Shown in pieces: positions 13,444 to 25,345 of a stretch of 64,000 nucleotides of DNA. This DNA is from a virus. The DNA is taken from the IMG/VR virus record IMGVR_UViG_3300045988_053091; one strand, given 5' to 3'. Below the pieces are notes generated by a model. That model saw only the letters and a list, made by a program, of their open reading frames with translations. It was not told the origin of the DNA and searched no databases. Made by a program: the position numbers and the translations under genes. The stretch's first letter is position 1; each line of letters begins with the position of its first letter.

Positions 13444-14025
13444 AGTATTACACCACAAGTTAGTGGTTAAAAATTGAAAACTTAATAGATTTTGAACCTA
13501 GTGCAGAAAGTTTGAACAGCTTGCTAGGATAACGTGGCGTGAATCTGGATGTAACCGAAGGTGCGATAGTGCTTTGGGTTGCAGGTAGGTCTTATGGTGA
13601 CATAGGAGTAACTATTAGTAAAAGCTAATATCAGTTAAGCGTTATGTGGAGTATACATGGATTGTAAGGTACAAGACTCTTGGGGGATACAATAGACGTT
13701 CCTGTGGAAAAGAATCCAAGTTAGGTGGAAGTGTGAGAAGCTTGGCAGACCTTGGAAAACTCAAAAGACTCCCTTTGACGAGAACTGTAGAAATACAGGT
13801 TTAACAAGAGACCTTGGTACAAGTAGCTTAAGTCAGCTTTTGATGAAAATATTATAAAAGACATAAGGATATATGTTCATTAATACTTTTAATAGCTGAA
13901 TGTTTAGGTGAACGTTGTTAGCCACCGTGCTAGACCATACATTAAAGGCAGAGAGAAGCTATCGGGTAGCTCCCGATGGTTCAGCCTCTCTGAGTATGTG
14001 ACCGAATGCAGTGAGTGTATATGAA

Positions 14026-14068
14026 GCAGGAAGAAAAGCCCTTAATCTATTAAGTTTTGAGTTTTTAA
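14026..14068 (+). repeat. 43-nt direct repeat, copy A1
   Basis: GCAGGAAGAAAAGCCCTTAATCTATTAAGTTTTGAGTTTTTAA, identical to 14527-14569. Confidence 0.95.
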
Positions 14069-18543: not shown

Positions 18544-18891
18544 GGGGCTGTTTTGGTTTCGACTGGCGTAAGGAGTATATGAATAGCGGGCAGAGTGATG
18601 ACTTAATCATCGCAGTAAATATAACTGCTAAAAACGAAGAATTATTAGCTGTAGCCTAGTTTTAGACTAGCTACACACTTACCCCTCTAGACTAGGGTCG
18701 GTTCTACCTAGAGGACTCATTAACCGACAACGCTGAGGTAAAAGTGGATAACTCAGGAGAGGCTTTACCACTCAGTTAAGGTAATTTCAGTTATTAGTTG
18801 TAACCTTAACGTAGATTAAAACTAGTAACTACGCCCGTAGAATTTTGTATGGTTCTACGTCAACACAGGGGTTCGATTCCCCTCAGTTCCA
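18544..18891 (+). ncRNA. ssrA: tmRNA (SsrA), phage-encoded
   Basis: The 5' end GGGGCTGTTTTGGTTTCGACTGGCG and the 3' end AGGGG-TTCGATT-CCCCT-CAGTTCC-A form the tRNA-like domain. Internal tag frame is GCT AAA AAC GAA GAA TTA TTA GCT GTA GCC TAG (AKNEELLAVA), 18627-18659. Confidence 0.8.
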
Positions 18892-18896
18892 TTTTG

Positions 18897-21087: not shown

Positions 21088-21120
21088 GGGGCATTAGCTC
21101 AGTTGGGAGAGCGCTACCCT
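21088..21120 (+). pseudogene. 5' half of an Ala-like tRNA (G3.U70) ending two nt into the anticodon loop
   Basis: GGGGCAT-TA-GCTC-AGTTGGG-AGAGC-G-CTACC-CT. Confidence 0.65.
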
Positions 21121-21934
21121 ATTTAAATTATTTTTTAGCCAATTCGAACACTAAGATGTAGTTATGCTATATTAGTGTTCGAAGAGGTGGAAAGTATGGT
21201 TAAAGTAAGTAAAGTTTACAGTGTAAGTGATGAAGATTTTAAGCTAGTTGTTGCTAATTCTAACACAATCACAGATATTCTTTGGAAGTTAGGATACAGT
21301 AAATCTTCTGGAACAGGTAACGCCAGAAATTTAATCAAAAAGCGGATAGCTGAACTAGGCATTACCTTCCAGTCACAACCAGTCAAATCTAGCAGAATGT
21401 CAGACGAGAGCTTTTATGTTAAAGGAACTTATCGTAGTAACCTACGAGTAAGAGTTCTACAAGATGGTTTCTTAGAGTATAAATGTTCGGAATGTGGTAT
21501 AACTAGTACTTGGAACGGTAAACCGTTAACTCTACAATTAGACCACGTTGACGGGGATGCTACAAATAATGAAAAGCCGAATTTACGATGGTTATGCCCT
21601 AATTGCCATACACAAACAGAGACGTATGGGTCAAAGAACAAAGGAAGCACAAGGACTAAGCATAGAGGAACTTATGGTGAACGAGAATGTAAGTATTGCC
21701 ATAAAATGTTTACTGCCAAGAACAGAGAATCCATGTTCTGTAGCGGGCAGTGTTCTGGTAAAAGCCGTAAGAAGACTCCACCTGTTTCTAAAGAAGACCT
21801 ACTAGCTTTGTTAGAAAAGGAGTCATTTTTGTCAGTGGGTCGTAAGTTTGACGTTTCAGATAACACTGTACGTAAATGGTGTATGCGTTATGATATACCT
21901 AGTAAGTCTTCTTATTATAAAAAATAATTTAAAT
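21121..21934 (+). mobile_element. 814-bp HNH-endonuclease insertion in the tRNA anticodon loop, bounded by a perfect 16-nt inverted repeat
   Basis: ATTTAAATTATTTTTT (21121-21136) and AAAAAATAATTTAAAT (21919-21934). Only about 82 nt are non-coding. Confidence 0.7.
21196..21927 (+). CDS. HNH homing endonuclease
   Basis: LDHVDGDATNNEKPNLRWLCPNCHTQ HNH motif with flanking HTH-like regions. ATG 21196 behind a GAGGTGG RBS. -10 TGCTATATT at 21165-21173 sits between 12-bp inverted repeats. Confidence 0.85.
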   Translation: MVKVSKVYSVSDEDFKLVVANSNTITDILWKLGYSKSSGTGNARNLIKKRIAELGITFQSQPVKSSRMSDESFYVKGTYRSNLRVRVLQDGFLEYKCSECGITSTWNGKPLTLQLDHVDGDATNNEKPNLRWLCPNCHTQTETYGSKNKGSTRTKHRGTYGERECKYCHKMFTAKNRESMFCSGQCSGKSRKKTPPVSKEDLLALLEKESFLSVGRKFDVSDNTVRKWCMRYDIPSKSSYYKK

Positions 21935-21971
21935 AAGGTAGATGTCAGCGGTTCAAGTCCGCTATGCTCCA
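21935..21971 (+). pseudogene. 3' half of the Ala-like tRNA
   Basis: AA-GGTAG-ATGTC-AGCGG-TTCAAGT-CCGCT-ATGCTCC-A; GGTAG pairs with CTACC of the 5' half. Confidence 0.65.
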
Positions 21972-22028: not shown

Positions 22029-22095
22029 GTATGCGTAGCTTAAGTGGATAAAGTGACCTATGAAGTAGATAGGGGTTCAAATCCCCTCGCATATC
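22029..22095 (+). pseudogene. short (67-nt) tRNA-like element lacking a normal anticodon arm
   Basis: Acceptor GTATGCG/CGCATAT, D GCTT/AAGT and T AGGGG-TTCAAAT-CCCCT, but only 16 nt lie between the D- and T-arms. Confidence 0.35.
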
Positions 22096-22260
22096 ATTAG
22101 GATTGGTCATCCTTGTTCAGGGTTGCAAACCTGTAACAGAATACGAGGTGAATTAACACCATATTGGGCGTTACCCTAGATTCCTGTCAAATCTATTGGT
22201 ACGGTAACTAGACTAGGTGTGTGTAATCGGAAGATGACAGGTACACAAGCCTATCCAATA

Positions 22261-22337
22261 GGACAGTGTTACACGGGTTCGATTCCCGTCCTGCGGGTTG
22301 TCCCTGCGGGTGGCTGAATGGTTAAAGCACACTGTCC
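22261..22337 (+). ncRNA. circularly permuted tRNA-like RNA domain (YrlA-type tRNA mimic candidate)
   Basis: 8-bp closing stem GGACAGTG/CACTGTCC, 4-nt variable, T-arm ACGGG-TTCGATT-CCCGT, 8-bp acceptor-like stem CCTGCGGG/CCTGCGGG (G.U-containing) capped by TTGTC, then TG and D-arm GCT-GAATGGTTAA-AGC. Confidence 0.5.
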
Positions 22338-22372
22338 CGAATGGATAAATTAAAAAAACTTACAAATAGTTG

Positions 22373-22400
22373 TTGACAGCATGTAAGTTTGTGTTATAAT
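22373..22400 (+). promoter_or_regulatory. sigma-A-type promoter for tRNA-Pro unit
   Basis: TTGACA, 16-nt spacer, TGTTATAAT. Confidence 0.7.
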
Positions 22401-22488: not shown

Positions 22489-22661
22489 TTAGAAGTTTAG
22501 TTGGTGGGCAACAGTAAAACCCAATATTCAAACTTCTATAACAAATATCCTTGGTTAAAATGAGTCCTAGCTCAACTCTAGGCAAGGTATTATGGAGTTA
22601 ATAGGAGAATGACAAGACAGGAATGATACTTCGCTGTCGGGTACCCGCCTATTAACATTAT

Positions 22662-22732
22662 GTGGATTTAGTATAAGGGTAACATCTTTGGCTCTCAACC
22701 AAAGGGTGCGGGTTCGAATCCTGCAATCCATA
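22662..22732 (+). tRNA. tRNA with anticodon CTC (Glu by anticodon)
   Basis: Acceptor GTGGATT/AATCCAT (G1.U72), anticodon arm TTTGG-CTCTCAA-CCAAA, T GCGGG-TTCGAAT-CCTGC; D-stem weak. Confidence 0.7.
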
Positions 22733-22928
22733 TATTCGTATCGCCTTGCGCCTCTTAATATGCGTACCAAGGGTGGTCTATTGGGTTGTATGTAGGCATT
22801 GTGTATATAAGACTAGTCACGTGTGAGGCAATACTAGTTGAAGTTATACAATGTACCCCATTAATACACTATGAGAGCTACCTCACTAAAAGTTTTTGTA
22901 CATTGTATTGATATATACATACTTATAC

Positions 22929-23010
22929 GGGGAGTTATACCGTAAGTAGTAGCGGGGCTGACTGTAAATCAGTTGCGAAAGCTCGGGTGGTGCAACTCCA
23001 TCACTCCCCA
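22929..23010 (+). tRNA. tRNA-Tyr (GTA), class II, unusual T-loop TGCAACT
   Basis: Acceptor GGGGAGT/ACTCCCC, anticodon arm GCTGA-CTGTAAA-TCAGT, variable arm GC-GAAA-GC. Confidence 0.7.
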
Positions 23011-23289: not shown

Positions 23290-23318
23290 TTGACAGTTTA
23301 AATAGCTTATGCTATTAT
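23290..23318 (+). promoter_or_regulatory. promoter of the Y-RNA-like transcription unit
   Basis: TTGACA, 17-nt spacer, TGCTATTAT. Confidence 0.7.
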
Positions 23319-23334
23319 AAAGACAAGATAAAAA

Positions 23335-23515
23335 GGTTTTGACATATGTCATAGTTCCAACCTAACAGGTAGCCGGAACATAAAGAACGCCACAGCAAAC
23401 TTTTAAAACTAATACATCTGGAAAATGTGAGTTGTTGGTTCGAATCCAACTGCCACCCTTGGTGGTATAGCTTAATTGGTAAAGCTTAAAGTTAATGCGT
23501 TCTTGTTACATAAAT
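23335..23515 (+). ncRNA. Y-RNA-like RNA 1 with internal permuted tRNA-like domain (YrlA-like candidate)
   Basis: Conserved 5' module shared with RNA 2. Helix AAGAACGC (23383-23390) pairs with GCGTTCTT (23497-23504). Inner helix 23398-23406/23486-23493. T-arm GTTGG-TTCGAAT-CCAAC. 7-bp acceptor-like stem capped by CTT. D-arm GCTT-AATTGGTA-AAGC. Confidence 0.5.
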
Positions 23516-23520
23516 AAAAC

Positions 23521-23640
23521 GGTTTTAGCATAGCTATAGTTCCATCCTTAATGGGTGCCGGAACATAAAGAACCCTACAGCAATCAACTACTAATATATT
23601 AAAACTATTGAATTTAATTAAGCCTGTGGTTCTTGATATT
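23521..23640 (+). ncRNA. Y-RNA-like RNA 2 (no tRNA-like domain; YrlB-like candidate)
   Basis: The first ~60 nt are homologous to RNA 1, with compensatory changes in two hairpins. Helix AAGAACC (23568-23574) pairs with GGTTCTT (23628-23634) around an AT-rich loop. Confidence 0.4.
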
Positions 23641-23698
23641 GTAATGACAAGTTAAACGGTAGCCGCTAAACCGAATGTTTAACTGTCGGTTATTTGAA

Positions 23699-23726
23699 AC
23701 TCATTCTTAATTGAATGGGTTTTTTA
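23699..23726 (+). terminator. intrinsic terminator
   Basis: ACTCATTC/GAATGGGT stem then TTTTTTATTT. Confidence 0.7.
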
Positions 23727-23809: not shown

Positions 23810-25345
23810 ATGTCGTTTTTAGACAACCTAAAAGAAGAAACAACTGTTGGCTCTACAGAAAATGGAGCTAAAACTTATACATCAACTTTAAACGCTAACT
23901 TAGACTTCTTTGCACAAGCAGGGGCTATGCGTGGTCGTTTAGAAGATGTACGAAACATGTTTTCTAAAGCTTATGCTGAAAACCCAGAGTTAGCATTACG
24001 CAATTTGGTACACTTACGTAATATCCGTTTAGGTGGATTGGGTGAACGTTCCGCTTACCTAGAAGCAATCAAATACTTAGTGGATGGTCGTAACCAAAAC
24101 AAGCAAGTAATCGTTACTTTAATGGAGTACATGGCATATGTTGGTCGTTGGACAGACTTATTTGAAACTATGGAGTACGCACACAAACGTAGTATTCACT
24201 TTGTGGATACAGAAGGCGCACGTATCATCGGTAACCAACTAACATCTGATATTAAAAATATGTCAGAAGGTAAGCCTGTATCATTACTAGGTAAATGGTT
24301 AGCTAATGTAAGTTCTCCAAATAGCAAGAAACGTAATCAAGGTGCTCGTATTGCTAACTATTTAGGTTTTGAAGGCAAAGCAGGTCTAACTCGTTATCGT
24401 AAAATGATTGCTAAATTACGTGATTACTTAAATGTAATTGAAGTTCGGTTAGCAAGCAAGGAATACCATAAGATTGATTTGAACCAAGTATCCTCTAAAG
24501 CATTGTTCAAATACCGTAAAGCTTTGCAATTACACATGCCAGATGAATATGAAGCGCTTATGGAAAAGGTGGAGTCGGGTGAAGGAAAGCTTAATGCAAG
24601 TTTGGTATTACCTCACGAGATTACAGGAGCATACCGTAAAGCACGTGCAGGTCAGGGTGTAAATCGTTCTTTAGAAGCTACTTGGCAGTCTTTAGATGAT
24701 GTTATTAAGGATGTGGAAGATAACGCAATTGTAGTTGCTGATTCTTCTAGTTCAATGACTTGGGAACAAACGAACGGGGTTTACCCTTGGGATGTTGCAC
24801 AAGGTTTAGCATTATACACGGCTGAAAAATTAAACGGTACTTTCGCTAATCATTTCATTACATTTGCATCAGAACCTAGTTTAGTATATTTGAATCCACA
24901 GGATACTGTGTATGACCGTATGAGAGCATATAACAGTGCAAGAGTTGGCTATTCTACTAATATTCAAGCAGTGTTCCGATTGATTCTTGATACTGCGGTT
25001 AAGCATAACACACCGCAAGAAGAACTACCATCCAAGATTATTATTATCAGTGATATGGAATTTAATACTGCTTGTGAACGAGGACAAAGAACAAACTTTG
25101 AGCAAGCAAAACAGGAGTTTGCAAATCATGGCTACGAGTTACCTGCTATTATTTTCTGGAATGTACAATCTCGTCATGATAATGTACCAGTACGGTTTAA
25201 TGAAGATAATGTTGCGTTAGTTTCTGGATTTTCCACAAATATTTTATCGCAAGTACTAGGTGGGGAAGTTACTTCCCCAGAAGAAATGATGTTGTCTGTT
25301 TTAAATAAACCAGAATACGACTTTGTAAAAGAAGCACTTAAATAA
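23810..25345 (+). CDS. helical-repeat plus vWA (MIDAS) protein, DUF2828-like, with Ro60/TROVE-like architecture
   Basis: The N-terminus TENGAKTYTSTLNANLDFFAQAGAMRG..LRNLVHLRNIRLGGLGERSAYLEA resembles the DUF2828 family. The C-terminal VVADSSSSMTW..IIISDMEFN is a vWA fold with a DxSxS MIDAS motif. Confidence 0.55.
   Translation: MSFLDNLKEETTVGSTENGAKTYTSTLNANLDFFAQAGAMRGRLEDVRNMFSKAYAENPELALRNLVHLRNIRLGGLGERSAYLEAIKYLVDGRNQNKQVIVTLMEYMAYVGRWTDLFETMEYAHKRSIHFVDTEGARIIGNQLTSDIKNMSEGKPVSLLGKWLANVSSPNSKKRNQGARIANYLGFEGKAGLTRYRKMIAKLRDYLNVIEVRLASKEYHKIDLNQVSSKALFKYRKALQLHMPDEYEALMEKVESGEGKLNASLVLPHEITGAYRKARAGQGVNRSLEATWQSLDDVIKDVEDNAIVVADSSSSMTWEQTNGVYPWDVAQGLALYTAEKLNGTFANHFITFASEPSLVYLNPQDTVYDRMRAYNSARVGYSTNIQAVFRLILDTAVKHNTPQEELPSKIIIISDMEFNTACERGQRTNFEQAKQEFANHGYELPAIIFWNVQSRHDNVPVRFNEDNVALVSGFSTNILSQVLGGEVTSPEEMMLSVLNKPEYDFVKEALK

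What the first reader, a model, noticed from the sequence alone, without database searches (positions are those of the whole stretch)
22261..22346. Second, independent circularly permuted tRNA-like element 1.4 kb upstream of the Ro-like gene
Seen in sequence: an 8-bp closing stem GGACAGTG (22261-22268) with CACTGTCC (22330-22337). A 4-nt variable segment. The T-arm ACGGG-TTCGATT-CCCGT. An 8-bp acceptor-like stem made of two copies of CCTGCGGG pairing through G.U wobbles (22290-22297 with 22303-22310), capped by TTGTC. Then TG and the D-arm GCT-GAATGGTTAA-AGC. The closing stem can extend after an internal loop (ATCCA 22253-22257 with TGGAT 22342-22346). The spacing of every element matches a class I tRNA rotated so that the ends exit through the anticodon stem. 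Inference: this is a second YrlA-type mimic or a decoy for tRNA-binding factors. Two such elements in one genome argue against chance.
Basis: partly seen in the sequence, partly recalled or inferred. Interest (0 to 1): 0.7.

Follow-up and report, generated by a model that had tools for sequence, protein, structure and literature searches.

The report
tRNA-shaped domain of phage RNA
The flagged element is a real, evolutionarily maintained tRNA look-alike with no anticodon loop, and it is the tail end of a previously undescribed ~255-base folded RNA that Enterococcus and Listeria phages carry in their tRNA gene cluster, upstream of a gene for a Ro60-like RNA-binding protein.

Summary
Orthologues in four diverged uncultured phages and in Listeria phage P100 keep every helix through compensatory changes (16 of 32 pairs; 0 of 500 shuffles).

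It has the architecture of YrlA, the bacterial Y RNA, and lies 1.46 kb upstream of a gene on the same strand. That gene's predicted fold matches Ro60, although Pfam calls it DUF2828+DUF7788.

It is not a clean YrlA member:
- It scores 29.4 bits against Rfam's cut-off of 69.
- It lacks the GNCGAAN0-1G motif.
- It lacks the ACAGCAA / GUCUUGUUAC signature of the small RNAs that sit next to DUF2828 genes in many phages.

It is also not a stand-alone element. It is the 3' domain of a ~255-nt RNA (about 22097-22350). The 5' half has three hairpins with invariant loops, a nested helix pair and two long-range (pseudoknot) pairings. All are conserved in six lineages, and none matches any Rfam family.

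Function is inferred only. Most likely it is a Y-RNA-type adaptor or tRNA-elbow decoy cut out of the tRNA-array transcript. I rate it a new variant of a known kind.

The parts
22097..22350 (+). Whole conserved structured RNA (~255 nt): a pseudoknotted 5' domain plus a tRNA-like 3' domain. It begins 1-3 nt after the upstream tRNA-like gene.
   Evidence: The same helices sit at the same positions in six lineages. RNAalifold predicts 50 pairs, 30 of them with compensatory changes. No Rfam family covers the 5' half.
22099..22113 (+). Hairpin H1 (AGGAU / AUCCU). Its loop UGGUC (22104-22108) pairs at long range with GACUA (22211-22215).
   Evidence: The stem differs in sequence between lineages. For the loop-to-distal pairing, UC->CU is matched by GA->AG in L098 and L099 (columns 15-19 with 124-128).
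22118..22133 (+). Hairpin H2 (CAGG / CCUG) with the invariant palindromic loop UUGCAA.
   Evidence: The stems covary: CUCGGG/CCCGAG, CUAUG/CAUAG, ACCG/CGGU, UUGUG/CACAA.
22147..22160 (+). Hairpin H3 (GGUG / CACC) with the conserved loop AAUUAA.
   Evidence: The stem is GCGG/CCGC in L099 and UCUG/CAGA in P100.
22170..22208 (+). Helix H4 (GUUACC 22170-22175 with GGUAAC 22203-22208), which encloses hairpin H5 (UAGAUU 22177-22182 with AAUCUA 22190-22195).
   Evidence: Both helices covary in six lineages.
22183..22241 (+). Pseudoknot: the H5 loop CCUGUCA (22183-22189) pairs with UGACAGG (22235-22241).
   Evidence: The pairing is CUUGCC/GGCAAG in L004, CUUGCCUU/AAGGCAAG in L098, ACCUAUC/GAUAGGU in L099 and GUCUC/GAGAC in P100.
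22252..22347 (+). Outer stem of the tRNA-like domain (UAUCCA 22252-22257 with UGGAUA 22342-22347). It flanks a conserved asymmetric internal loop: AUA at 22258-22260 and CGAA at 22338-22341.
   Evidence: Helix 1: 96% of cells paired, 2 pairs changed on both sides. The loop consensus is 5' NUA / 3' YGNA.
22261..22337 (+). Closing stem (GGACAGUGU 22261-22269 with ACACUGUCC 22329-22337), in the place of the anticodon stem.
   Evidence: Helix 2: 5 of 9 pairs changed on both sides.
22273..22289 (+). T arm: ACGGG-UUCGAUU-CCCGU.
   Evidence: Helix 3: 100% of cells paired, 3 of 5 pairs compensatory. The T loop UUCRANN is invariant.
22290..22310 (+). Acceptor-like 8-bp hairpin: CCUGCGGG-UUGUC-CCUGCGGG.
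   Evidence: Helix 4: 97% of cells paired, 4 pairs compensatory. It keeps pairing after a 2-nt deletion in Porthos and iF6. It is absent in L099.
22311..22328 (+). U8-G9 linker and D arm: GCU(G)-AAUGGUUA-(A)AGC.
   Evidence: Helix 5: 2 pairs compensatory. G18-G19 are invariant.
22030..22096 (+). Upstream tRNA-like gene whose 3' end probably sets the 5' end of the RNA. The gene at this position is a different tRNA or pseudo-tRNA in each lineage.
   Evidence: Relatives annotate it as tRNA-Pseudo or tRNA-OTHER. The corresponding gene is tRNA-Leu in L004, tRNA-Arg in L098, tRNA-Phe in L099 and tRNA-Gly in P100.
22373..22400 (+). Strong sigma-70-type promoter for tRNA-Pro. It marks the end of the transcription unit that contains the RNA.
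   Evidence: 12 of 12 hexamer matches, with an extended -10 TG.
23375..23512 (+). Proximal YrlA-like RNA. It has a tRNA-like module plus the ACAGCAA (23392-23398) and GCGUUCUUGUUAC (23498-23510) signature.
   Evidence: Rfam YrlA 33.2 bits. Found by the signature descriptor at 23383-23507.
23560..23642 (+). Second proximal small RNA. It has the same signature but no tRNA-like module, so it resembles YrlB.
23810..25345 (+). Gene for a Ro60-like protein: an alpha-helical ring plus a vWA domain. Pfam DUF2828+DUF7788, PHROG 850 'RNA-binding protein'.
   Evidence: AlphaFold2 model with pLDDT 91.9. The top 12 Foldseek hits in the PDB are all Ro60/TROVE.

Best explanation
The element is the tRNA-like 3' domain of a ~255-nt non-coding RNA. 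The RNA is encoded in the tRNA array of Enterococcus phages (Schiekvirus and four uncultured relatives) and of Listeria Pecentumvirus phages.

Shown:
- The domain adopts a class I tRNA fold, with a T arm, a D arm, the elbow contact positions and an acceptor-like hairpin. A covarying 9-bp stem, a conserved internal loop and a 6-bp outer stem replace the anticodon arm. This is the YrlA (bacterial Y RNA) architecture.
- It is fused to a 5' domain of three hairpins, a nested helix pair and two long-range pairings.

Inferred:
- The RNA is co-transcribed with the neighbouring tRNAs. RNase P and the tRNA 3'-end processing enzymes acting on the flanking tRNAs then release it.
- It works as a Y-RNA-type adaptor. 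The stem and internal loop, and/or the 5' domain, would bind a protein, most plausibly the phage's Ro60-like DUF2828 protein. The exposed tRNA elbow would engage host enzymes that recognise tRNA shape, such as PNPase (as in known Ro-Y RNA-PNPase complexes), RNase P or modification enzymes.
- The effect would be to redirect RNA or tRNA surveillance, or anti-phage nucleases, during infection.
For: Structure:
- The MFE fold equals the proposed fold, z = -3.96.
- 16 of 32 pairs are compensatory and 0 of 500 shuffles reach the observed values.
- The covariance model recovers L099 and P100, which were not in its training set.
- RNAalifold on six lineages gives 30 of 50 pairs with compensatory changes.
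- The manual helix table is perfectly complementary in all six lineages.

YrlA-likeness:
- Rfam RF02553 aligns over its full length.
- Comparable sub-threshold YrlA hits lie beside DUF2828 genes in L068 (49.2 bits), L004 (40.9) and mycobacteriophage UPIE (39.8).

Link to the Ro-like protein:
- The RNA is on the same strand, 1.46 kb upstream of the gene in the window and 3 kb upstream in P100.
- The protein's predicted fold matches Ro60.
- Co-occurrence: the RNA and the gene are present in Schiekvirus (31 records, with one exception listed under evidence against), in 54 of 54 Listeria records, and in L004, L096, L098 and L099. Both are absent from phiEF24C, a member of the sister genus, in the 100 kb scanned of its 142-kb genome.
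- RtcB lies next to the DUF2828 gene in L102, as in the Salmonella rsr-yrlBA-rtcBA operon.

Processing:
- In P100 the RNA is directly flanked by tRNA-Gly and tRNA-Arg.
- The window has no strong promoter between the tRNAs and the RNA.

Precedent:
- The Ro60 of Thermus phage phiLo binds two phage Y-like RNAs and recruits host PNPase (PMC12135203).
- A Ro60-like protein encoded next to the tRNA genes of phage Bas63 counters a defence system (PMC11482910).
- Non-coding regions near the tRNA genes of the P100-like phage CKA15 are very highly transcribed (PMC12282133).
Against: - The RNA lacks the GNCGAAN0-1G motif of TROVE-associated YrlA. The window has AUCCAAUAG on the 5' strand. CGAA occurs in the 3' side of the internal loop only in the Schiekvirus copy; the orthologues have CGUA, UGUA, GCAA or GUAU.
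- It lacks the ACAGCAA / GUCUUGUUAC signature that marks the RNAs next to DUF2828 genes in Gram-positive, Gram-negative and mycobacterial phages. Those RNAs, not this one, are the obvious partners of the protein.
- Phage EFP01 has lost the DUF2828 gene and the proximal RNAs but keeps the tRNA-like domain intact.
- Most DUF2828-encoding phages have no copy. For example, VRE9_1, wV8 and SEP9 gave no specific hit.
- No transcript ends, binding data or phenotype exist for this RNA.
Confidence: 0.45

Rival explanations
1. A Ro-independent tRNA-elbow mimic. The RNA would act alone as a sponge, decoy or recruiter for host factors that read tRNA shape: RNase P, T-loop and D-loop modification enzymes, tRNA-directed toxins or defence nucleases. 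Alternatively it would be a self-assembling RNA that dimerises through its palindromic loops. Its position near the Ro-like gene would only reflect a shared 'RNA island' that also holds the tRNAs, a tmRNA and a ROOL RNA.
For: - It lacks both known Ro-binding signatures.
- EFP01 retains it without the DUF2828 gene.
- The hairpin loops UUGCAA and AAUU are invariant and palindromic.
- It is embedded among tRNAs, not next to the protein gene.
- The part kept in every lineage is the elbow plus the stem. The acceptor-like hairpin is missing in L099.
Against: - Within Herelleviridae it was found only in lineages that also encode the DUF2828 protein, and it is absent from phiEF24C.
- It has no anticodon loop, so it cannot be a decoy for anticodon nucleases.
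- The EFP01 deletion may be recent.
Confidence: 0.3
2. A cis-acting leader or processing signal. The structured RNA would control translation, stability or 5'-end formation of the downstream gene. In four lineages that gene is a WDGH-domain ORF starting 10-25 nt after the outer stem. The tRNA-like fold could recruit RNase P in the way mascRNA does for MALAT1.
For: The WDGH ORF, with a good ribosome-binding site, follows the RNA directly in L004/L100, L096, L098 and L099.
Against: - The window has no WDGH gene (tblastn). There the RNA is followed by a promoter and tRNA-Pro.
- In P100 it is followed by tRNA-Arg.
- Conservation of the RNA without the gene argues for a function in trans.
Confidence: 0.12
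3. A non-functional relic: a rearranged or tandemly fused pair of tRNA gene halves left over from recombination in the tRNA array.
For: - tRNA arrays in these phages are rearrangement-prone. tRNA-Ala is interrupted and a pseudo-tRNA lies just upstream.
- My descriptors and the covariance model do pick up tandem tRNAs as false positives.
Against: - Compensatory changes occur in all five helices across six lineages that span two phage subfamilies.
- The flanking stems and the 5' domain co-evolve with it.
Confidence: 0.03
4. A circularly permuted (two-piece) tmRNA-like gene, or a permuted true tRNA gene that is matured through a circular intermediate.
For: The order T arm, 3' acceptor strand, loop, 5' acceptor strand, D arm, with pseudoknots upstream, is the same topology as in permuted tmRNA genes.
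Against: - Neither RF04321 nor RF00023 matches beyond the T arm.
- There is no conserved tag reading frame after the D arm.
- The D arm is a real stem.
- The phage already has a standard tmRNA at 18544-18894.
- There is no anticodon arm, so no tRNA could be produced. ARAGORN finds nothing here.
Confidence: 0.03

Closest known systems
YrlA, the bacterial Y RNA-like RNA (Rfam RF02553; Chen et al. 2014, PMC4201824)
   Same: - The modules come in the same order: 5'/3' stem, internal loop, second stem, T arm, closed acceptor-like hairpin, D arm.
- The tRNA elbow nucleotides are conserved.
- It is encoded on the same strand within 4 kb of a Ro60-type protein.
- Several such RNAs occur per locus.
   Different: - It scores 29.4 bits against a gathering score of 69.
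- It has no GNCGAAN0-1G motif.
- It has no V stem-loop.
- It carries a ~150-nt pseudoknotted 5' domain that is unknown in YrlA.
- The neighbouring protein is DUF2828/DUF7788, not TROVE by sequence.
- It sits inside a tRNA array, 1.5-3 kb from the protein gene.
Yrl1 and Yrl2 of Thermus phage phiLo, with phage Ro60 (PMC12135203; PDB 9L5Y)
   Same: - It is a phage-encoded Ro60-type protein with two or more Y-like RNAs upstream.
- There is a stem-bulge-stem layout. The window copy even has CGAA in its internal loop.
- The phage protein is among the best structural matches.
   Different: - CGAA is not conserved in the orthologues of the element.
- The phiLo RNAs are not described as having a tRNA-like domain (no occurrence of 'tRNA-like' in the paper's text), and I found no mention of a pseudoknotted domain.
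- Binding has been shown for phiLo, not here.
The ACAGCAA / GUCUUGUUAC small RNAs that flank DUF2828 genes
   Same: - They are in the same genome, on the same strand and near the same protein gene.
- Many carry a permuted tRNA-like module with the same T, acceptor-like and D order.
   Different: - The element lacks both signature motifs.
- Its closing stem joins the tRNA-like module directly.
- It has a different phyletic range: two Herelleviridae groups, against phages of many bacterial phyla.
Mycobacterium smegmatis YrlA, which is cleaved by RNase P and receives CCA (PMC4201824)
   Same: It has a long acceptor-like stem, 8 bp here including a 7-bp acceptor equivalent. That paper identifies such a stem as the determinant for RNase P cleavage.
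   Different: Cleavage has not been tested here. The hairpin is absent in L099, so it cannot be essential for the conserved function.
Circularly permuted (two-piece) tmRNA genes and permuted tRNA genes of red algae (from my own knowledge of these families)
   Same: The gene order is circularly permuted, with the 3' half of the tRNA-like fold upstream of the 5' half. Pseudoknots lie next to the tRNA-like domain.
   Different: There is no tag reading frame, no anticodon arm and no Rfam match. The acceptor-like stem is a closed hairpin in the gene, with no evidence that it is opened.

Membership tests
YrlA / bacterial Y RNA (RF02553) | T-arm-like stem-loop with the conserved T loop | tested here: met
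   ACGGG-UUCGAUU-CCCGU. UUCRANN is invariant, and 3 of 5 pairs are compensatory.
YrlA / bacterial Y RNA (RF02553) | D-arm-like stem-loop with the conserved GG | tested here: met
   GCU(G)-AAUGGUUA-(A)AGC. GG is invariant, and 2 pairs are compensatory.
YrlA / bacterial Y RNA (RF02553) | [quoted passage not shown] | tested here: met
   An 8-bp hairpin with 4 compensatory pairs. It is missing in one lineage, L099.
YrlA / bacterial Y RNA (RF02553) | Long stem formed by the 5' and 3' segments, with an internal loop | tested here: met
   A 6-bp outer stem and a 9-bp closing stem, both covarying.
YrlA / bacterial Y RNA (RF02553) | GNCGAAN0-1G motif near the 5' end (the proposed Ro60 contact; PMC4201824) | tested here: not met
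   The 5' strand reads AUCCAAUAG in the window and YYCYNUWRG across the orthologues.
YrlA / bacterial Y RNA (RF02553) | Score at or above Rfam's gathering threshold (69 bits) | tested here: not met
   29.4 bits.
YrlA / bacterial Y RNA (RF02553) | Encoded within about 4 kb of a Ro60 orthologue, on the same strand | tested here: inconclusive
   Distance and strand are met: 1.46 kb upstream, + strand. However, the protein is DUF2828+DUF7788 by Pfam and has no sequence-level match in the PDB. It resembles Ro60 only by predicted fold (TM 0.64).
YrlA / bacterial Y RNA (RF02553) | Bound by the Ro60/Rsr protein | not testable with these tools
   Needs immunoprecipitation or gel-shift assays.
DUF2828-associated ACAGCAA-type RNAs (defined here) | A helix followed by ACAGC[AGU]A on the 5' side, and the helix's 3' strand followed by GU (GUCUUGUUAC-like) | tested here: not met
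   In the window the descriptor finds only 23383-23507. Neither motif occurs in 22097-22350.
tRNA | Anticodon arm with a 7-nt loop and a free acceptor end | tested here: not met
   ARAGORN and the Rfam tRNA model find nothing here. The anticodon position is occupied by a continuous stem, and the acceptor is a closed hairpin.
Permuted or standard tmRNA (RF04321, RF00023) | tRNA-like domain plus a resume codon and tag reading frame; a match to the family model | tested here: not met
   Only the 17-18-nt T arm matches RF00023. No conserved reading frame follows the D arm (read from the orthologue sequences).
Ro60 / TROVE protein family (for the neighbouring gene) | A ring of alpha-helical repeats followed by a vWA domain | tested here: met
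   The AlphaFold2 model has pLDDT 91.9. The top 12 PDB hits are all Ro60/TROVE, aligned over 500-580 columns. The Pfam TROVE domain itself is not detected.

The most novel reading that the evidence does not exclude
The ~255-nt RNA would be a new class of phage non-coding RNA. A tRNA-elbow mimic is fused to a compact double-pseudoknot domain with invariant palindromic loops, and the RNA acts independently of the canonical Ro-Y RNA interaction. It might, for example, assemble into dimers or higher-order particles, or capture a host tRNA-recognising enzyme or defence nuclease. The true Y RNAs of the DUF2828 protein would then be the ACAGCAA-type RNAs.
Probability: 0.3. Interest if true: 0.8.

Novelty: new variant of a known kind. 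Interest (0 to 1): 0.62.

Why it matters
- Ro60-Y RNA particles are conserved from bacteria to humans, yet their mechanisms are still poorly understood. Phage versions have only just begun to be studied: a phiLo structure in 2025, and a Ro60-like counter-defence gene in phage Bas63.
- This finding adds a structurally well-supported tRNA-mimic RNA in phages that are used in practice. These include Listeria P100/A511-type biocontrol phages and Enterococcus EFDG1-type therapy candidates. In their database records the RNA is unannotated or mis-annotated as a small protein gene.
- Because it is fused to a second, elaborate RNA domain and lacks the usual protein-binding motifs, it separates two questions that can now be tested in tractable phage-host pairs. 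What does the tRNA shape do? And which RNA does the Ro-like protein actually bind?
- It also shows that DUF2828 proteins, which are very common in phages, come with their own recognisable family of small RNAs.

Tried and rejected
- Exact-pattern scans for more copies. The element's core pattern in IMG/VR found only the contig already held.
- Two patterns based on the 5' domain, run in IMG/VR and in the metagenome collection, returned the same lineages plus chance matches. L130 and L156 proved to be coding-like sequence.
- blastn with the L098 copy against the phage collection found nothing.
- Covariance-model hits of about 30 bits were checked. They turned out to be ACAGCAA-type RNAs or two adjacent tRNAs, such as L051 341-425, so they are not counted as members.
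- The first loose descriptor gave 62 hits on the gene strand against 2 on the other. It is confounded by co-oriented tandem tRNAs. After masking ARAGORN tRNAs, 31 against 0 remain.
- I considered and rejected a K-turn in the internal loop, because the sequence does not fit the tandem G.A rule. This is inference from the sequence, not a tool test.
- I considered and rejected an RNase P RNA CR-V match: 'ACAGAA' occurs only in the window copy.
- A short reading frame after the D arm (EWIN*, VWVN* and similar) is too short, lies within the outer stem and is not conserved, so it is not a tmRNA tag.
- The supplements of Chen et al. 2014 are not held. I could not check whether any DUF2828-type phage protein was in their set.
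- The CKA15 paper gives no coordinates or expression values for the locus of this RNA.
Full report
**Source and setting**

The window comes from an Enterococcus phage of the genus Schiekvirus (Herelleviridae, Brockvirinae). The region 21900-23800 matches 31 phage records at 90-99% identity (28 of them at 95-99%), including EFDG1, EfV12-phi1, Porthos and phiSHEF16. The finding lies in an 'RNA island'. The island holds 19 tRNA genes, a tmRNA (18544-18894) and a ROOL RNA (13473-14059, 267.9 bits).

**The observation**

All stated sequence features are present at the stated coordinates.

The energy is -42.1 kcal/mol, z = -3.96 against 200 dinucleotide shuffles, and no shuffle folds as well.

No tRNA finder calls the element. 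Rfam's YrlA model (RF02553) aligns to 22251-22351 over its full length at 29.4 bits. It aligns to the proximal element 23405-23512 at 33.2 bits. Both scores are far below the gathering score of 69.

**Conservation within close relatives**

The element is present and unannotated in all 31 Schiekvirus records at 95-100% identity. Ten aligned copies differ as follows:
- in the variable segment, the T loop and the cap of the acceptor-like hairpin;
- by one C-to-U change that keeps a G.U pair;
- by one 2-nt deletion (Porthos, iF6) that still leaves a 7-of-8 hairpin;
- by one G-to-A change in the D stem of phage 113.

Because the flanks are equally conserved at this distance, this alone proves little.

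**Diverged orthologues and covariation**

Contigs that encode more distant relatives of the neighbouring protein (56-73% identity) carry orthologues at the same syntenic position: L004/L100, L096, L098 and L099.

The result:
- 93.6% of cells pair, against 31-50% with slid partners.
- 16 of 32 pairs show changes on both sides.
- 0 of 500 shuffles reach any of the five measures.
- Each of the five helices has at least two compensatory pairs.

A covariance model built from this alignment scores two sequences outside its training set: L099 at 35.8 bits and Listeria phage P100 at 35.6 bits. The P100 copy has no non-canonical pair. L099 lacks the acceptor-like hairpin but keeps everything else.

The P100-type copy is present in all 54 Listeria Pecentumvirus records. 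Lower-scoring hits proved to be other RNA types or tandem tRNAs.

**The element is part of a larger RNA**

The ~150 nt between the upstream tRNA(-like) gene and the element is also conserved. In six lineages the same helices occur at the same positions with different sequences:
- H1.
- H2, with the invariant loop UUGCAA.
- H3, with the loop AAUUAA.
- H4, which encloses H5.
- A pairing of the H5 loop with a segment about 45 nt downstream. This is CCUGUCA/UGACAGG in the window, CUUGCC/GGCAAG in L004, ACCUAUC/GAUAGGU in L099 and GUCUC/GAGAC in P100.

RNAalifold, run independently on the six full-length sequences, predicts 50 pairs, 30 of them with compensatory changes. It adds a long-range pairing of the H1 loop with the conserved UAGACUAG box. 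No Rfam family matches this 5' domain, even with relaxed filters.

The 5' domain ends 8-10 nt before the outer stem of the tRNA-like domain. The RNA starts 1-6 nt after a tRNA or pseudo-tRNA that differs between lineages. In P100 a tRNA-Arg gene follows after 5 nt. The window has no strong promoter between the upstream tRNAs and the RNA, and a perfect promoter follows it.

I infer one ~255-nt RNA (22097-22350) released from the array transcript by tRNA processing. No transcript data were available for this locus.

**The neighbouring protein**

ORF 23810-25345 is Pfam DUF2828+DUF7788 with a weak vWA match, and PHROG 850 'RNA-binding protein'. It has no sequence-level match to any solved structure.

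An AlphaFold2 model (pLDDT 91.9) has Ro60/TROVE structures as its top 12 PDB matches. These include 1yvr (TM 0.64/0.63 over 560 columns), D. radiodurans Rsr, and the Ro60 of Thermus phage phiLo.

Homologues are abundant in phages: 695 phage records and more than 586 IMG/VR loci. They include the mycobacteriophage genes annotated 'Ro-like RNA binding protein'. 'Ro-like' is therefore justified by fold, not by family assignment.

**A different RNA family looks like the protein's regular partner**

Next to DUF2828 genes there are small RNAs with a constant signature. A 6-8-bp helix has its 5' strand followed by ACAGC(A/G)A, and its 3' strand runs into (U)GU, as in GUCUUGUUAC. Many carry a permuted tRNA-like module and some do not.

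A descriptor for the signature gives 102 hits on the gene strand against 3 on the other strand in 80 IMG/VR loci, and 51 of the 80 loci have at least one. It also hits beside the gene in the following:
- wV8 (Felixounavirus);
- SEP9 (Staphylococcus);
- FADO (Bacillus);
- UPIE (Mycobacterium);
- P100, which has three copies, all without a tRNA-like module.

The window has two: 23375-23512 and 23560-23642. They lie in their own transcription unit, with a promoter at 23290-23318 and a terminator at 23696-23723.

The finding's RNA has neither motif. It also lacks the GNCGAAN0-1G motif of TROVE-associated YrlA (PMC4201824). CGAA does sit in the 3' side of its internal loop in the window, but the orthologues have CGUA, UGUA, GCAA or GUAU there.

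**Phyletic pattern**

Within Herelleviridae I found the RNA only in lineages that encode the DUF2828 protein. phiEF24C, a member of the sister genus Kochikohdavirus, has no DUF2828 gene in the region syntenic with the window's Ro-like locus and no covariance-model hit in the 100 kb of its 142-kb genome that I scanned.

Two observations point the other way:
- EFP01 has lost all but the last 50 codons of the gene, and has lost the proximal RNAs. It keeps the tRNA-like domain, with homology starting exactly at the outer stem.
- Most DUF2828 phages have no copy.

In four lineages a WDGH-domain ORF (PF25311, function unknown) starts 10-25 nt after the RNA. It is absent from the window and from the P100 locus.

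**Literature**

- Phage Ro60 homologues with Y-like RNAs are known in mycobacteriophages, CcrColossus, Bacillus phage G and Thermus phage phiLo. The phiLo protein binds two upstream Y-like RNAs and recruits host PNPase (PMC4201824, PMC12135203).
- A Ro60-like protein encoded next to the tRNA genes of phage Bas63 counters the 'ppl' defence system. The authors guessed that some of the adjacent 'tRNAs' are Y RNAs (PMC11482910).
- For the P100-like phage CKA15, the authors reported three very highly transcribed non-coding regions near the tRNAs. They proposed Y RNAs and an Rsr-like CKA15_055 (PMC12282133).
- By position, their top region (CKA15_059-061) is the ROOL-like RNA. The RNA studied here is mis-annotated there as the CDS CKA15_066.
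- I found no description of this RNA itself.

**Interpretation**

Shown:
- It is a conserved, covarying, YrlA-shaped tRNA mimic that forms the 3' domain of a larger structured RNA.
- That RNA is conserved in phages of two Herelleviridae subfamilies (Enterococcus and Listeria hosts).

Inferred:
- It is released by tRNA-processing enzymes.
- It acts as an adaptor or decoy that presents a tRNA elbow.
- It is functionally linked to the Ro60-like system.

The link is supported by neighbourhood and co-occurrence. It is weakened by the missing binding motifs and by EFP01. I therefore give the adaptor model 0.45 and a Ro-independent role 0.30.

It fails two defining tests for YrlA membership, so I file it as a new variant of a known kind and not as a member.

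Noticed in passing
window 13473-14059 (+); L091 1459-2010; L173 2989-3299 (-): A full-length ROOL RNA (267.9 bits) lies in the phage's tRNA island. Listeria phage P100 has a ROOL-like RNA (86 bits, below the cut-off of 99.1) between tRNA-Pro and its DUF2828 gene. By position this equals CKA15_059-061, which a 2025 RNA-seq study reports as by far the most abundant phage transcript without identifying it.
   Followed up: partly
window 18544-18894 (+): A phage-encoded standard tmRNA (124.9 bits; tag AKNEELLAVA*) lies in the same array as the tRNAs.
   Followed up: no
window 21088-21117 and 21935-21971 (+), insert 21118-21934: tRNA-Ala is split by an 817-nt insert. The insert carries an HNH-endonuclease ORF (21175-21927) and is bounded by ~20-bp inverted repeats that extend the anticodon stem. 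The 7-nt anticodon loop seen in relatives is missing, so the gene may be disrupted or may need an unusual excision.
   Followed up: partly
window 22030-22096 (+): A tRNA-like gene with a shortened anticodon region. ARAGORN and the Rfam tRNA model miss it, and relatives annotate it as tRNA-Pseudo or tRNA-OTHER. Its 3' end abuts the start of the structured RNA.
   Followed up: partly
window 23375-23512 and 23560-23642 (+); also L091 2653-2920, L093 4719-5496, L094 2762-2902, L090 4455-4705: A family of small RNAs has the signature helix + ACAGC(A/G)A ... helix + GU(UAC). It flanks DUF2828 (Ro60-like) genes in phages of Firmicutes, Proteobacteria and Actinobacteria: 102 hits on the gene strand against 3 on the opposite strand in 80 loci. 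These are probably the real Y RNAs of this protein family and seem not to be annotated.
   Followed up: partly
window 23560-23642 (+) versus L001 4140-4330: The window's second proximal RNA lacks the tRNA-like module that the orthologous RNA has in phages 163, 113, EFDG1 and others. This is a natural YrlA-to-YrlB-like conversion between near-identical phages.
   Followed up: partly
L102 7107-9260: An RtcB RNA ligase gene lies about 1 kb downstream of the DUF2828 gene in one uncultured phage. This echoes the Salmonella rsr-yrlBA-rtcBA operon.
   Followed up: no
L089 (Enterococcus phage EFP01): EFP01 has deletions that remove the upstream tRNAs and the 5' RNA domain, tRNA-Pro/Gly, the proximal RNAs and all but the last 50 codons of the DUF2828 gene. 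The tRNA-like domain and the following promoter remain.
   Followed up: partly
L004 1283-, L096 2999-3370, L098 3000-3386, L099 2858-3223: A WDGH-domain ORF (PF25311, function unknown) starts 10-25 nt downstream of the structured RNA in four lineages. The window has no homologue.
   Followed up: partly
window 22931-23008 (+) and 22661-22733 (+): A tRNA-like sequence just under the Rfam cut-off (27.7 bits, with a long variable region) corresponds to tRNA-Tyr in relatives. ARAGORN reads the gene at 22661-22733 as tRNA-Glu(CUC), whereas relatives annotate tRNA-Gly at that position.
   Followed up: no
L173 296-1816 (-), CKA15_055: [quoted passage not shown] It may therefore be delivered with the genome.
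   Followed up: no
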